A stretch of 4,352 nt of DNA from a virus (lineage: Duplodnaviria; Heunggongvirae; Uroviricota; Caudoviricetes), in IMG/VR virus record IMGVR_UViG_2713896777_000025; one strand, given 5' to 3'. Below the pieces are notes generated by a model that saw only the letters and a list, made by a program, of their open reading frames with translations, was not told the DNA's origin and did no database searches. The position numbers and the translations under genes were made by a program. Shown in pieces: positions 1,044-2,407 of the stretch (within the stretch, counting starts at the first letter, position 1; each line of letters starts with the position of its first letter).

Positions 1044-1257
1044 AACCCCCCCCATTTTCACAATCAGCAACAAGAATATTTTTAGCGTCATTCAGCGACC
1101 GCGTTGCGATGTATCGGATACATTCCAGGGCGAACTGTGTCCGGTCTTTCTGTTCTTCTCCCTGCGCAAGCTCTGCAGTGCATTCAATATCGATAAGCGC
1201 GTGCATCAGCGTAGTGAGCGCGGCGGCTGCTGCGTCCGGTGTGGTTTTATTGCACAT
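1036..1257 (-). CDS. Hypothetical small acidic protein (73 aa, MCNKTTPDAAAAALTTLMHALIDIECTAELAQGEEQKDRTQFALECIRYIATRSLNDAKNILVADCENGGGYA)
   Basis: Same frame as ORF-track ORF 1036..1299; start placed at ATG 1257-1255, which has a consensus SD AGGAGG (revcomp of 1264-1269) 6 nt upstream and overlaps the last codons of the preceding gene. Stop TGA at 1038-1036. Confidence 0.6.
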   Translation of the reverse strand: MCNKTTPDAAAAALTTLMHALIDIECTAELAQGEEQKDRTQFALECIRYIATRSLNDAKNILVADCENGGGYA

Positions 1258-1807
1258 GGCACACCTCCTGACGAATACGGGCGGCGAATACAGCAACACA
1301 ACCGGACGGGCAACGGCTACGCGCTTCGCGTTCCGTCCAGGCGGTTACGTGGATGATTTGATGTTCTGACGCGCCAAAGATGATAAAGCGCCAGAGAAAG
1401 GCGGTTTGAGAATGTACAAGGGTAGGGATAGTAGCCATGTTGGCAGCCTCCTCAGTGTGGTTAAGATAACCGCCACCGGAAACGCCAATTTCGCTGGTGG
1501 CGGACTGTACAGGGTTGGCGTAACCGGACACTGAAGAAACCGGCGCGGATTGCTCCGCCCCCGTACAGCCCACCATTGATAAGGTGTGACTATGCGGCAC
1601 AAAAAAACACGCGGGGCGCGTGTTATGCGCTTCAGTTTTGCCCAGGACGCCAATCCCGGCACCCGTTTTATGAGGTGCGCGGGAATCATAGCTATTTTCG
1701 ACACTGGCGATCAACTGGTTTTTTTCTCCGATATTCAGGGCCAGAAAACGCCACACAAAGGCCGTTTGTGTGTGTACAAGGTGTGGTATATGATTTACGG
1801 CAACCAT
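1247..1807 (-). CDS. Small protein (186 aa) with an internal tandem duplication of an N-terminal module (HIPHLVHTQTAFVWRFLALNIGEKNQLI / TIPTLVHSQTAFLWRFIIFGASEHQII); possibly related to Icd-like proteins of P4-type elements (unverified)
   Basis: ATG at 1807-1805 with SD AGGAG (revcomp of 1813-1817) 5 nt upstream; frame open to TAA at 1249-1247. A second in-frame ATG at 1438-1436 has its own strong SD GAGGAGG (revcomp of 1447-1453, 8-nt spacer) and begins a 63-aa copy of the module. The longer ORF-track call 1247..2323 is rejected because it reads antisense through the RHH gene and the operator region. Confidence 0.55.
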   Translation of the reverse strand: MVAVNHIPHLVHTQTAFVWRFLALNIGEKNQLIASVENSYDSRAPHKTGAGIGVLGKTEAHNTRPACFFVPHSHTLSMVGCTGAEQSAPVSSVSGYANPVQSATSEIGVSGGGYLNHTEEAANMATIPTLVHSQTAFLWRFIIFGASEHQIIHVTAWTEREARSRCPSGCVAVFAARIRQEVCHVQ

Positions 1808-1836
1808 AACGGCTCCTAGTTTACGTTGTTGGTTAG

Positions 1837-1878
1837 ACGCCCCGTATGTGTTCCCAGCACTGCGGGGCGTTGATTTTT
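1837..1878 (+). terminator. Hairpin followed by a T-tract (terminator-like on the plus strand; also a structured element in the 5' leader of the minus-strand operon)
   Basis: ACGCCCCG (1838-1845) pairs with CGGGGCGT (1863-1870), with an inner GTG/CAC pair, followed by TGATTTTTGT (1871-1880). On the minus strand the same stem is not followed by a U-tract. Confidence 0.3.
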
Positions 1879-1897
1879 GTGTAATGGCAAGTACAAT
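1870..1897 (+). promoter_or_regulatory. Candidate sigma70 promoter for the RHH gene (TTGATT - 16 bp - TACAAT)
   Basis: -35 TTGATT at 1870-1875 and -10 TACAAT at 1892-1897; predicted TSS near 1904, about 34 nt before the RHH ATG. The -10 overlaps palindrome 1. Confidence 0.4.
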
Positions 1898-1909
1898 GGT
1901 AATTACCAT
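1896..1909. promoter_or_regulatory. Perfect 14-bp palindrome ATGGTAATTACCAT (candidate operator 1)
   Basis: Read directly from the sequence; it is its own reverse complement. Overlaps the plus-strand -10 and the predicted TSS of the minus-strand promoter. Confidence 0.5.
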
Positions 1910-1915
1910 GTAGGT

Positions 1916-1944
1916 ATAGTAATGAAGGGTAATTACCATGTCAA
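1916..1944 (-). promoter_or_regulatory. Candidate sigma70 promoter for the minus-strand small-gene operon (TTGACA - 17 bp - TACTAT)
   Basis: On the minus strand, a consensus -35 TTGACA (revcomp of 1939-1944, overlapping the RHH start codon), an exact 17-bp spacer that contains palindrome 2, and -10 TACTAT (revcomp of 1916-1921). Predicted TSS near 1908, about 100 nt before ATG 1807. Confidence 0.45.
1928..1937. promoter_or_regulatory. Perfect 10-bp palindrome GGTAATTACC (candidate operator 2)
   Basis: Same core as palindrome 1, 30 bp centre-to-centre. Sits in the -35/-10 spacer of the minus-strand promoter and covers the RBS of the RHH gene. Confidence 0.5.
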
Positions 1945-2111
1945 CACCATTAGAAAAACGTTCGCCTCCATACCAAATGCGATTACCGGAAGACTTCAGA
2001 GCGCAGCTAGAAGAAGCAGCTAAGGCCGATGGCGACACATCTTTAGCCACTTGGATTAAACGCGTTCTCCGCAAAGAATTACAGCAACGCGGCATAGAAC
2101 CCAAAGGATAA
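1938..2111 (+). CDS. Arc/Mnt/MetJ-family ribbon-helix-helix DNA-binding protein (57 aa, MSTPLEKRSPPYQMRLPEDFRAQLEEAAKADGDTSLATWIKRVLRKELQQRGIEPKG)
   Basis: Not in the ORF track (below its size cut-off); translated by hand. SD AAGGG at 1925-1929, 8 nt before ATG 1938; stop TAA at 2109-2111. The protein has the Arc/Mnt RHH pattern: beta-strand YQMRLP, helix A EDFRAQLEEAAKADG, turn, helix B SLATWIKRVLRKELQQ. Confidence 0.8.
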   Translation: MSTPLEKRSPPYQMRLPEDFRAQLEEAAKADGDTSLATWIKRVLRKELQQRGIEPKG

Positions 2112-2168
2112 AAACTATCAGCGCCGTGGTGTGAGGTATTACGGCGCATTGCTATGCAGGACAACACA

Positions 2169-2327
2169 ATGACCGATAAAGAATTGACCAAAACATNNNN
2201 NNNNNNNNNNNNNNNNNNNNNNNNNNNNNNNNNNNNNNNNNNNNNNNNNNNNNNNCTGATTGCATTGCCCACCAGCCTGATAGCGGCTATCATCCCCGTG
2301 CTTATGTTTGGGATCACATACACATAA
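2169..2327 (+). CDS. Probable small single-TM membrane peptide (~52 aa; MTDKELTKT...[about 20 masked codons]...LIALPTSLIAAIIPVLMFGITYT)
   Basis: ATG 2169 with AGGA (2158-2161) 7 nt upstream; an alternative ATG is at 2154. The frame stays in register across the 59-nt N-run and ends at TAA 2325-2327, 27 nt before a strong plus-strand terminator. The C-terminus is a 20-residue hydrophobic stretch. Uncertain because about 40% of the ORF is masked. Confidence 0.35.
   Translation: MTDKELTKTXXXXXXXXXXXXXXXXXXXXLIALPTSLIAAIIPVLMFGITYT
2197..2255. other. Run of 59 N (masked or unresolved bases)
   Basis: Directly visible. Falls inside the candidate small membrane-peptide ORF. Confidence 1.
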
Positions 2328-2353
2328 GGCGCAGCGGGTTAATTGTTCAGAAA

Positions 2354-2381
2354 GGCGGCTCCATATCGGGGCCGCTTTTTT
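2354..2381 (+). terminator. Rho-independent terminator for the plus-strand RHH cassette (possibly weakly bidirectional, also ending alpA)
   Basis: GCGGCTCC (2355-2362) pairs with GGGGCCGC (2368-2375), 8 bp with one G-U, loop ATATC, followed by TTTTTT (2376-2381). On the minus strand the hairpin is followed only by CTTTCTG. Confidence 0.6.
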
Positions 2382-2407
2382 CGTGTTTGTCATATCTGTG
2401 ATACCCG

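What the first reader, a model, noticed from the sequence alone, without database searches (positions are those of the whole stretch)
1247..1807. Internally duplicated small gene with a second ribosome-binding site in frame
The first gene of the minus-strand operon carries two copies of a roughly 26-residue module (I-P-x-L-V-H-[TS]-Q-T-A-F-[VL]-W-R-F...), one at the N-terminus and one 123 codons later. Each copy is preceded by its own strong SD and ATG (AGGAG + ATG at 1807; GAGGAGG + ATG at 1438), and the flanking DNA is also repeated (about 48 bp around 1391..1438 versus 1751..1807). Either two tandem paralogous small genes have fused in frame, or one gene yields a 186-aa and a 63-aa isoform by internal initiation. 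The motif is reminiscent of small proteins annotated as Icd-like in P4-type islands, but that is recollection, not a verified match.
Basis: partly seen in the sequence, partly recalled or inferred. Interest (0 to 1): 0.65.

Follow-up and report, generated by a model that had tools for sequence, protein, structure and literature searches.

The report
Satellite-phage RNA immunity cassette inside ORF
The "duplicated small gene" is the immunity region of a P4-type phage satellite: two known regulatory RNA genes sit in frame between a 28-codon fragment of one cell-division-inhibitor (icd) gene and a complete second copy, a variant of a system already known from phages P4 and P1.

Summary
The 186-codon ORF (1807..1247, minus strand) carries two copies of an Icd N-terminal module, each with its own SD and ATG. 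The similarity is far above chance.

- an isrK/seqA-like RNA (1678..1602), with its own promoter-like site and terminator;
- a C4/CI antisense RNA (1580..1493).

Both pass Rfam gathering scores. The C4 loop pairs with the second SD (GAGGAGG, 1453..1447) and with isrK. This pairing co-varies across 26 C4 variants.

The last 63 codons are an Icd/Kil-family gene. The first 28 codons are the 5' end of another icd allele, which occurs intact as a 64-66-aa gene, without the RNAs, in many related satellites. The window differs from that form by an exact 360-nt in-frame insert whose left edge is at 1724|1723.

The layout matches the nested eta/kil genes of phage P4. In the unmasked identical copy the frame runs 409 codons back to alpA.

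Verdict: a variant of a known system, of moderate to low interest. Translation of the long form is inferred, not shown.

The parts
1916..1944 (-). Upstream sigma-70-like promoter (TTGACA, 17 nt, TACTAT). It would drive the long transcript that contains ATG 1807.
   Evidence: Consensus scan, 10 of 12 matches. It lies between two copies of the operator-like palindrome GGTAATTACC (1895-1911 and 1925-1941). Function is inferred.
1813..1817 (-). Shine-Dalgarno AGGAG of module 1; ATG at 1807..1805.
   Evidence: Read from the sequence. It is not complementary to C4: -16.2 kcal/mol, against -15.8 +/- 2.8 for non-cognate C4 cores.
1724..1807 (-). Module 1: 28 codons (MVAVNHIPHLVHTQTAFVWRFLALNIGE), the 5' end of a second icd allele.
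   Evidence: Its first 73 nt are 95-100% identical (mostly 97-100%) to the start of a stand-alone 64-66-aa icd-like gene in about 46 IMG/VR loci; about nine further simple-form loci match at 83-89%. Homology to that simple form ends at 1724. The fragment alone gives no NF033153 match.
1685..1714 (-). Internal promoter-like site (TTGATC, 18 nt, TATGAT). It places a start near 1678, which is position 1 of the isrK model.
   Evidence: Consensus scan, 9 of 12 matches. It is the positional analogue of the promoter inside P4 eta (PMC10111431). The hexamers are read as the conserved 'QLIA' and 'YD' peptides of the Ash family.
1602..1678 (-). isrK / P4 seqA-like RNA with the a1/b1 target sites and an intrinsic terminator (stem 1624..1606, then a U-run).
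   Evidence: Rfam RF01394, 66 bits against gathering score 50. Weak c4-a1b1 match at 1691..1639 (E=0.04). Terminator scan. Cognate C4 pairing is -29 kcal/mol against -18 for non-cognate.
1493..1580 (-). C4 / P4 CI-type antisense RNA.
   Evidence: Rfam RF01695, 77.6 bits against gathering score 45, full length. MFE -46.9 kcal/mol with the model's structure.
1447..1488 (-). Downstream target of C4: b2 (UUGGCGUUUCCGG, 1488..1476) and a2 (ACACUGAGGAGG, 1458..1447). The a2 site contains the SD GAGGAGG (1453..1447) of the icd gene.
   Evidence: Duplex -36 kcal/mol against -18.6 for non-cognate. Loop and targets co-vary across 26 distinct C4 cores.
1247..1438 (-). icd/kil-type gene, 63 aa (module 2 plus the rest of the domain), the last part of the long ORF.
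   Evidence: NF033153, 57 bits. It is 40% identical to the Icd of a P1-like phage, E=1e-9. P4 Kil hits the same model at 76 bits. Third codon positions vary most: 16/19/33 changes at positions 1/2/3, p=0.03.
1247..1807 (-). It equals the 66-aa simple form plus an exact 360-nt in-frame insert.
   Evidence: RefSeq splits it into an 'ash family protein' pseudogene (1807..1469) and an Icd-like CDS (1438..1247).
1808..2393 (-). Upstream continuation of the same frame, back to an ATG 15 nt after the alpA stop (409 codons in all). It runs antisense through the Arc-like and 62-aa genes. The N-run 2197-2255 replaces 142 real bases, so the frame can be followed only in L001.
   Evidence: L001 5475..6704 is open. 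The window is 100% identical to L001 on both sides of that N-run. The pattern recurs in 23 contexts.
1938..2111 (+). Divergent Arc-like (ribbon-helix-helix) repressor gene, 57 aa, a candidate regulator of the upstream promoter.
   Evidence: phrog_228 'Arc-like repressor', E=1.5e-6. Pfam Arc is sub-threshold. Not annotated in RefSeq.

Best explanation
This is the immunity and early-control region of a P4-like/PICI-type phage satellite. The satellite is integrated at tRNA-Pro beside yejM in E. coli.

The cassette (1723..1247):
- It begins with a promoter-like site that would start a transcript near 1678.
- That transcript begins with an isrK/seqA-like RNA, which ends at an intrinsic terminator.
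- Read-through transcripts contain the C4/CI RNA.
- C4 base-pairs through its hairpin loop and 3' linker with two sites: a1/b1 in isrK, and a2/b2 just downstream of C4. The a2 site covers the SD of the 63-aa icd/kil gene.
- With C4 present, icd is therefore not translated. By analogy with P4 and P1, the untranslated transcript terminates, which keeps the downstream replication genes off.

The long frame:
- A transcript from upstream would carry a reading frame that runs without a stop through the whole cassette and ends as icd. Candidate sources are the operator-flanked promoter at 1944..1916, or alpA further up.
- Ribosomes starting at ATG 1807 (or further upstream) use a start region that C4 does not match.
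- By translating across isrK, C4 and the targets, they would override RNA pairing and termination. This is the role described for P4 eta.

The duplicated module:
- It is historical. The cassette carries its own icd 5' end and sits in frame after codon 28 of a resident, diverged icd allele.
- That allele supplies the SD, the ATG and the first 28 codons of the long form.

Shown here: RNA identities, pairing and its covariation, Icd family membership, recombination breakpoints, conservation of the frame.

Inferred: promoter use, translation of the long form, anti-termination, toxicity of Icd.
For: RNA identities:
- C4 scores 77.6 bits and isrK 66 bits, both inside the ORF.
- The same three Rfam features lie inside the P4 eta ORF 8812..8168, which ends in kil.
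- PMC10111431 summarises the P4 mechanism and notes C4/isrK hits in PICI 'Bro' genes.
- PMC4825925 shows that in Gifsy-1 an ORF downstream of isrK (orf45) is translated and coupled to the next gene. It calls IsrK a structural homologue of P4 SeqA. A processed short RNA derived from orf45 is also reported there; I did not check whether orf45 overlaps a C4 homologue.

Pairing of C4 with its targets:
- Across 26 distinct C4 cores, cognate against non-cognate duplex energy is -28.6 against -17.5 for a1/b1 and -29.6 against -19.3 for a2/b2 plus SD.
- The cognate target is the best partner in 22 and 18 of 26 cases.

The Icd gene:
- NF033153 matches the 63-aa product, P4 Kil, P1-type Icd and the stand-alone allele.

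Origin of module 1:
- It is 95-100% identical (mostly 97-100%) to the start of a stand-alone icd in about 46 loci that lack C4 and isrK. Rfam at gathering threshold confirmed the absence in the 6 simple-form loci tested.
- Breakpoints are sharp, at 1724|1723.
- The two modules differ by 6 synonymous and 3 conservative changes in 15 codons (read). They are therefore diverged alleles, not a recent duplication.

Selection on the frame:
- The isrK-to-C4 spacing in satellites is 98, 101, 140, 164, 176 or 185 nt. All are 2 mod 3, and the ORF is open through isrK.
- In P1-like and lambdoid phages the spacing is 99 or 100 nt and the ORF starts after isrK.
- Of 130 unique C4 segments, 108 have the same frame open from -150 to +200.
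- At least four different upstream junction types are all in frame.

Promoter-like sites lie at the expected places.
Against: - No expression data of any kind were available. The promoters are consensus matches only.
- The Ash part shows no codon periodicity (24/24/32 changes, p=0.45). The long product's sequence therefore seems unconstrained, and translation is supported only by frame conservation and by analogy.
- A second minus-strand frame (1704..1345) is also stop-free across both RNAs in this family. Openness across the RNAs is therefore weak evidence on its own.
- The loci are phylogenetically related, so counts of open frames are not independent.
- RefSeq calls the upstream part a pseudogene.
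- The N-terminal parts of P4 Eta and of this ORF share no detectable similarity.
- BLASTP finds no alignment between P4 Kil and this Icd. They are linked only through the family model.
- For a single sequence, duplex energies of the GC-rich C4 core are only about 2-3 sd better than shuffles.
Confidence: 0.78

Rival explanations
1. Module 1 and the Ash part are inert debris. The RNA cassette landed in, or recombined into, an icd gene. The 5' stump was left in frame by chance. Only the RNAs and the 63-aa icd are functional, and the 186-aa protein is never made or does nothing.
For: - RefSeq flags the upstream part as a pseudogene.
- There is no codon periodicity in codons 29-123.
- The fragment alone does not match the Icd model.
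- Another frame is also open over the RNAs.
- An in-frame junction has a prior of one in three.
Against: - The in-frame state recurs at several different junctions (types A, A', B/C, D and a three-module form).
- Spacer lengths in satellites all keep the frame, and it is lost precisely in phages where the ORF starts later.
- The SD and ATG of module 1 are intact and identical to those of the functional stand-alone allele.
- The frame stays open back to alpA.
- Translation across this kind of region is reported for P4 eta (PMC10111431) and for Gifsy-1 orf45, downstream of isrK (PMC4825925).
Confidence: 0.17
2. It is a genuine multi-domain protein, Icd-N plus an 'Ash' domain plus Icd. The middle domain would have a protein-level function such as DNA binding, as the Pfam Phage_ASH family and the 'Bro network' classification imply. 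The RNA matches would be secondary.
For: - Pfam PF10554 scores 63 bits against a cut-off of 26 on residues 40-133.
- phrog_29966 covers the whole 186 aa.
- Hundreds of database proteins have this architecture.
Against: - The Pfam match coincides with the -10 hexamer, isrK, C4 and the SD.
- Conserved peptides correspond to promoter hexamers and RNA stems.
- Substitutions show no third-position excess, whereas the icd part does.
- Variable 'residues' are the antisense loop and its targets, which co-vary as RNA.
- In the six simple-form loci tested the whole segment is absent and icd is intact.
Confidence: 0.04
3. It is a recent tandem duplication of the icd 5' end, for example by replication slippage, made within this element.
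For: The repeat is direct, and its spacing of 360 nt is a multiple of three.
Against: - The copies are only 76% identical, with many synonymous differences.
- Module 1 is 95-100% identical (mostly 97-100%) to a different allele found alone in other elements.
- The intervening DNA is a cassette found behind other upstream sequences, with the same left edge.
Confidence: 0.01

Closest known systems
Phage P4 immunity region: nested eta/kil genes enclosing the CI RNA, with the seqA and seqC targets (Forti et al. 1999 and Sabbattini et al. 1995, as summarised in PMC10111431)
   Same: - A long ORF ends, in the same frame, as a roughly 65-aa Icd-family product.
- isrK/seqA and C4/CI lie inside that ORF, in the same order.
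- There is a promoter-like site internal to the ORF.
- The antisense target sits at the SD of the short gene.
- The frame reaches back to the alpA homologue.
- The downstream genes are replication genes.
   Different: - The N-terminal part is unrelated to P4 Eta. Here it contains a 28-codon fragment of a second icd allele with its own SD and ATG.
- An Arc-like repressor operon and operator-flanked promoters are inserted between alpA and the cassette, and the long frame crosses them antisense.
- The isrK-to-C4 spacing is 98 nt against 185 nt.
- The replication module uses a RepA helicase rather than the alpha primase.
- Sequence identity is too low for blastn.
Phage P1/P7 immI: c4 antisense RNA, icd and ant (Citron & Schuster 1990 and Riedel et al. 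1993, cited in PMC8198154)
   Same: - The C4 RNA family is the same, with a1/b1 and a2/b2 targets. The downstream target covers the icd RBS.
- The Icd is 40% identical.
   Different: - In the P1-like phage examined, the ORF does not extend through isrK (spacing 99 nt, ORF opens 54 nt before C4).
- icd is followed there by a Roi-like DNA-binding gene, at the position of ant in P1, not by replication genes.
- There is no upstream icd fragment.
Gifsy-1 isrK-orf45-anrP locus of Salmonella (PMC4825925)
   Same: - The isrK RNA has a leaky terminator.
- A translated ORF downstream of isrK couples to the next gene.
- The nucleotide sequence, not the peptide, is what is conserved.
   Different: - The downstream gene is an antirepressor.
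- The published model is activation in trans by short IsrK, not C4-type repression.
- There is no Icd module.
Pfam PF10554 Phage_ASH / RefSeq 'ash family protein'
   Same: Residues 40-133 match above threshold.
   Different: Here the 'domain' is the translation of a promoter-like site and two RNA genes, and it shows no sign of protein-level constraint.

Membership tests
Icd-like protein (NCBIfam NF033153) | Match to the family model above the curated cut-off of 25 bits | tested here: met
   The C-terminal 63 aa score 57.1 bits and the 186-aa ORF 60.3 bits, on residues 137-180 only.
Icd-like protein (NCBIfam NF033153) | Module 1 (the N-terminal copy) is itself an Icd domain | tested here: not met
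   A 45-aa N-terminal query gives no match. Only 28 codons derive from icd. The intact allele scores 64.6 bits.
Icd-like protein (NCBIfam NF033153) | Inhibits cell division or kills the cell when expressed | not testable with these tools
   This needs an overexpression and filamentation assay.
C4 antisense RNA (Rfam RF01695, includes P4 CI) | Covariance-model score above the gathering threshold, full length | tested here: met
   77.6 bits against 45, model positions 1-87 of 87.
C4 antisense RNA (Rfam RF01695, includes P4 CI) | Loop (a') and linker (b') are complementary to an upstream and a downstream target, and the downstream one covers the RBS of the next gene | tested here: met
   -29 and -36 kcal/mol against about -18 for non-cognate pairs. 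Covariation is seen across 26 cores.
C4 antisense RNA (Rfam RF01695, includes P4 CI) | Processed from a longer transcript into a stable small RNA (by RNase P, from my own knowledge of the literature) | not testable with these tools
   Only the 3' ...GCCACCA motif after the closing stem can be read from the sequence.
isrK / P4 seqA RNA (Rfam RF01394) | Covariance-model score above the gathering threshold, with own promoter and terminator | tested here: met
   66 bits against 50. A promoter-like site ends 7 nt before model position 1, and the scan finds a terminator. Promoter activity was not tested.
P4-type nested eta/kil arrangement | A long ORF ends in frame as the short Icd-family gene and encloses seqA and CI | tested here: met
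P4-type nested eta/kil arrangement | The long ORF starts next to, or overlapping, the alpA homologue | tested here: met
   In L001 the frame is open from 54 nt before the alpA stop, and the first ATG is 15 nt after it. The P4 ORF overlaps orf88 by 48 nt. A nearer SD and ATG at 1807 also exists.
P4-type nested eta/kil arrangement | Translation of the long form prevents immunity-specific termination; the short form is made from the internal promoter | not testable with these tools
   Only indirect support is available: frame-preserving spacer lengths.
P4-type nested eta/kil arrangement | Sequence homology of the Eta-specific part to P4 Eta | tested here: not met
   blastn of the window's cassette segments (C4, isrK, both modules) finds nothing in P4. 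The upstream parts look unrelated by inspection of the translations; no protein-level comparison of them was run.
Pfam Phage_ASH (PF10554) | Match above the gathering score | tested here: met
   63.3 bits against 26.
Pfam Phage_ASH (PF10554) | Behaves as a protein domain under purifying selection | tested here: not met
   Changes by codon position are 24/24/32 (p=0.45), against 16/19/33 (p=0.03) in icd.

The most novel reading that the evidence does not exclude
In this family of E. coli satellites, selection would keep one uninterrupted reading frame, hundreds of codons long and with no protein-level function, from the end of alpA to icd. The frame runs antisense through a divergent repressor operon, across promoters and operators, and through two RNA genes. 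Its purpose would be that ribosomes escort RNA polymerase past every termination and antisense checkpoint once alpA is switched on. Fragments of icd alleles would be captured in frame as spare start sites. That would be a translated bridge whose only product of value is the act of translation, on a much larger and more modular scale than P4 eta.
Probability: 0.35. Interest if true: 0.55.

Novelty: new variant of a known kind. Interest (0 to 1): 0.33.

Why it matters
- Annotation. 'Ash family protein' and the long 'Icd-like' CDSs in thousands of enterobacterial genomes largely reflect a promoter-like site plus two regulatory RNAs read as protein. The true regulated product is a gene of about 63 aa whose RBS is an antisense target.
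- Biology of satellites. The RNA immunity unit behaves as a portable cassette with a fixed left edge. It is present or absent between otherwise near-identical satellites. Recombination always seems to leave the frame intact, which gives a testable handle on translation-dependent anti-termination outside P4.
- Novelty. It is not a new mechanism.

Tried and rejected
- A genome-contig scan with a 9-sequence Icd alignment matched 114 stretches, but none passed tblastn because the query was too short. I used viral contigs instead.
- The primary P4 paper (Forti 1999, PMC94026) is not held. The P4 mechanism is therefore cited through the summary in PMC10111431 and from my own knowledge.
- BLASTP of P4 Kil against the window's Icd gave no alignment. 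The link rests on the shared NCBIfam model.
- No solved structure is related to the Icd profile.
- PHROGs has no family for the upstream 'bridge' part of the ORF.
- My first codon-position count was off by one base. It was redone.
- The 'other frames are closed' argument was weakened: frame +1 is open from 1704 to 1345 in this family. I rely on spacer lengths instead.
- A simple shadow-ORF explanation for the 409-codon frame was tested. The reverse genes contain TTA, CTA and TCA codons, so it is not the codon-for-codon shadow. Synonymous shuffles give P(no stop) of 0.13 and 0.03, which is suggestive but not decisive.
- A possible third C4 target at 1753..1724 (-26.4 kcal/mol) is within the shuffle background of -25 +/- 2.9, so I dropped it.
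- No structure prediction was run.
Full report

Yes. The minus-strand ORF 1807..1247 has 186 codons.

Residues 7-21 (IPHLVHTQTAFVWRF) and 127-141 (IPTLVHSQTAFLWRF) align with a BLOSUM62 local score of 80. Shuffles give 23.8 +/- 4.3, and none of 2000 reaches the observed score.

At DNA level there is a 46-nt direct repeat, 1790..1745 against 1430..1385. It is 76% identical and spaced exactly 360 nt apart. Its local score is 40 against 15.6 +/- 2.3.

AGGAG (1817..1813) with ATG 1807, and GAGGAGG (1453..1447) with ATG 1438, are both present.

The sequence is not an assembly artefact. It is 100% identical in a closed E. coli chromosome and in three viral contigs (L004-L006). About 139 of 5426 complete E. 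coli genomes carry at least 80% of the 751-nt region.

**2. What lies between the two modules.**

An Rfam scan of the window gives two matches above gathering score, both inside the ORF and on its strand:
- C4 antisense RNA (RF01695), 1580..1493, 77.6 bits against 45.
- isrK (RF01394), 1678..1602, 66 bits against 50.
- There is also a weak match to the 'a1,b1 target' motif at 1691..1639.

A sigma-70-like site (TTGATC, 18 nt, TATGAT; 1714..1685) ends 7 nt before isrK position 1. isrK ends in a hairpin plus U-run.

On the protein side:
- NCBIfam recognises only the last 63 aa as Icd-like.
- Pfam's Phage_ASH matches residues 40-133, which is exactly the stretch that encodes the -10 hexamer, isrK, C4 and the second SD.
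- RefSeq annotates an 'ash family protein' pseudogene (1807..1469) and a separate Icd-like CDS (1438..1247) in the same frame.

**3. The same layout is found in phage P4.**

In NC_001609 a 214-codon ORF (8812..8168) ends as MATTLTPSHPEFVFVF..., which is Kil. It contains isrK (8692..8615), c4-a1b1 (8705..8653, which is seqA) and C4 (8507..8420, which is the CI RNA). P4 Kil hits the same Icd model at 76 bits.

PMC10111431 summarises the P4 mechanism as follows:
- A constitutive promoter lies inside eta.
- Early termination occurs through CI/seqA RNA interactions.
- Kil is a truncated Eta made on read-through.
- Full Eta is made only from an upstream late promoter, coupled to the alpA homologue.
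- Eta translation prevents termination.

That paper also notes C4 and isrK hits in PICI 'Bro' genes.

PMC4825925 shows for Gifsy-1 that an ORF downstream of isrK (orf45) is translated and coupled to the next gene. It calls IsrK a structural homologue of P4 SeqA. A processed short RNA derived from orf45 is reported there as well. I did not check whether orf45 overlaps a C4 homologue.

PMC8198154 recapitulates the P1 c4-icd-ant operon. The window's Icd is 40% identical to a P1-type Icd.

**4. The second RBS is an antisense target.**

I collected 310 loci and located C4 and isrK with nhmmer. There are 26 distinct C4 cores.

The hairpin loop (a') and the 3' linker (b') vary between cores. The matching segments vary with them, both in isrK and in the 60 nt after C4.

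| Target | Cognate (kcal/mol) | Non-cognate (kcal/mol) | Cognate is best partner |
|---|---|---|---|
| a1/b1 (in isrK) | -28.6 | -17.5 | 22 of 26 |
| a2/b2 plus SD | -29.6 | -19.3 | 18 of 26 |

In the window the C4 loop UUUCUUCAGUGU pairs with ACACUGAGGAGG (1458..1447), which includes the SD. CGCCAA pairs with UUGGCG at 1488..1483 and within isrK.

The start region of module 1 is not a target: -16.2 against -15.8 +/- 2.8.

**5. Where module 1 comes from.**

Its first 73 nt are 95-100% identical (mostly 97-100%) to the start of a stand-alone gene of 64-66 aa in about 46 viral contigs, and about nine further simple-form loci match at 83-89%. That gene reads MVAVNHIPHLVHTQTAFVWRFLALSAGESQIIHVTAWTEREARSRCPSGCVAVFAARIRQEVCHVQ and scores 64.6 bits on the Icd model. 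These contigs have no C4 or isrK by nhmmer. Rfam at gathering threshold confirmed the absence in the 6 simple-form loci tested.

The breakpoints are as follows:
- The simple form (L024) matches the window at 1879..1724 (95%) and again from 1421 onward (97%).
- Loci that carry the cassette behind other upstream sequences match from exactly 1724/1723 onward.

The window therefore equals the simple form plus an exact 360-nt (120-codon) in-frame insert. The insert holds the promoter-like site, isrK, C4, the targets, an SD and ATG, and the 5' end of another icd allele.

The two modules differ by six synonymous and three conservative changes in 15 codons. They are diverged alleles, not a fresh duplication.

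Relatives show other in-frame junctions:
- ...SEQEARQ|KNQLIA
- ...NLNKAGV|KNQLIA
- ...YIWRFLAR|KNQLIA
- a three-module form, P0014.

Some relatives carry a second C4-icd unit downstream.

**6. Is the long frame selected?**

Evidence for selection:
- Among 130 unique C4-containing segments, 108 keep the same frame open from 150 nt before C4 to 200 nt after it.
- In satellites the isrK-to-C4 distance is 98, 101, 140, 164, 176 or 185 nt. All of these are 2 mod 3, and the frame is open through isrK.
- In P1-like and lambdoid phages the distance is 99 or 100 nt and the frame opens only after isrK. One 97-nt variant is frameshifted.

Evidence against, or weakening the case:
- Codons 29-123 show no third-position excess (24/24/32 changes), unlike icd (16/19/33, p=0.03).
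- Another frame is also open across the RNAs in this family.
- The loci are related, so the counts are not independent.

My reading is that the frame, and not the peptide, is conserved.

**7. The ORF does not stop at 1807.**

In the unmasked copy L001 the frame is open for 409 codons. The window's N-run 2197-2255 hides 142 real bases there. The frame starts at an ATG 15 nt after the alpA stop and runs antisense through an Arc-like repressor gene and a 62-aa gene.

In 23 unique alpA-to-icd contexts there is always one long forward ORF of 196-442 codons.
- In most of them its first Met lies 10-20 nt after the alpA stop; exceptions include L018, L030, L053, L063 and two loci where it lies upstream of the stop.
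- It ends 11 or 28 nt before the first icd-type ATG in 12 of 23, or is fused in frame to the icd ORF in 5.

Synonymous shuffles of the reverse genes give P(no forward stop) of 0.13 and 0.03. This parallels the coupling of P4 eta to its alpA homologue, but it was only partly followed up.

**8. Verdict.**

The finding is a correct observation of a real feature. Its main content went unrecognised: a C4/isrK RNA immunity cassette nested in a P4-type eta/kil reading frame. The system is known. The icd-fragment N-terminus, the portable cassette edge and the very long bridging frame are variations on it. Translation of the long form and its anti-termination role remain inference.

Noticed in passing
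window 1247..2393 (-); L001 5475..6704: The frame of the 186-aa ORF is open for 409 codons, from an ATG 15 nt after the alpA stop. It runs antisense through the Arc-like and 62-aa genes. In 23 related contexts a forward ORF of 196-442 codons always bridges alpA to icd. It ends 11 or 28 nt before the icd ATG in 12 of them, or is fused in frame to the icd ORF in 5.
   Followed up: partly
window 1895-1941 and 1938..2111 (+): Two copies of the palindrome GGTAATTACC flank or overlap divergent promoter-like sites. Next to them is a 57-aa Arc-like repressor gene (phrog_228, E=1.5e-6) that RefSeq does not annotate. A 62-aa gene (phrog_21027) and a strong terminator at 2349-2381 follow.
   Followed up: partly
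window 1469..1723 (-): The conserved peptides of Pfam Phage_ASH / 'ash family protein' correspond to non-coding signals here. 'QLIA' is the -35 hexamer TTGATC and 'YD' is the -10 hexamer TATGAT. The rest is isrK and C4. There is no codon periodicity. The family may largely be a translated RNA and promoter region.
   Followed up: partly
window 1838-1880: A GC-rich hairpin (GACGCCCCG...CGGGGCGTC) lies in the leader before ATG 1807. On the plus strand it is followed by TTGATTTTTGTG, so it looks like a terminator for transcription antisense to the cassette. A plus-strand promoter-like site lies at 1440-1467. It is conserved in the simple-form relatives.
   Followed up: no
window 1752..1772 (-): A terminator-like hairpin (CACACAAACGGCCTTTGTGTG, then GCGTTTTCTG) lies inside module 1. 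Its arms include two codons, ACA (Thr) and GTG (Val), that differ non-synonymously from module 2, which cannot form it.
   Followed up: no
L015 3225-3429, L019 3263-3351; protein P0014: Some close relatives carry a second, divergent C4 (plus a1/b1) and another icd-like gene (MAVSARPYFVWRFMQC...) just downstream. One database ORF strings three Icd-like modules in one frame. The window has only one C4.
   Followed up: partly
window 1345..1704 (-): A second minus-strand frame (119 codons) is also stop-free across isrK and C4. ORF length alone is therefore poor evidence of coding in this GC-rich structured region.
   Followed up: yes
window 2197-2255 (N-run): This masked stretch is shorter than the sequence it replaces: 59 N for 142 real bases, judged against L001. 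ORFs and coordinates across it are therefore distorted in the window.
   Followed up: yes
L001 3221-11706 (whole island): The element sits between tRNA-Pro (next to yejM) and yejO. It encodes an integrase, AlpA, a RepA-family helicase, a small terminase subunit and a major capsid protein. That is a capsid-encoding PICI/P4-like satellite of about 8.5 kb.
   Followed up: no
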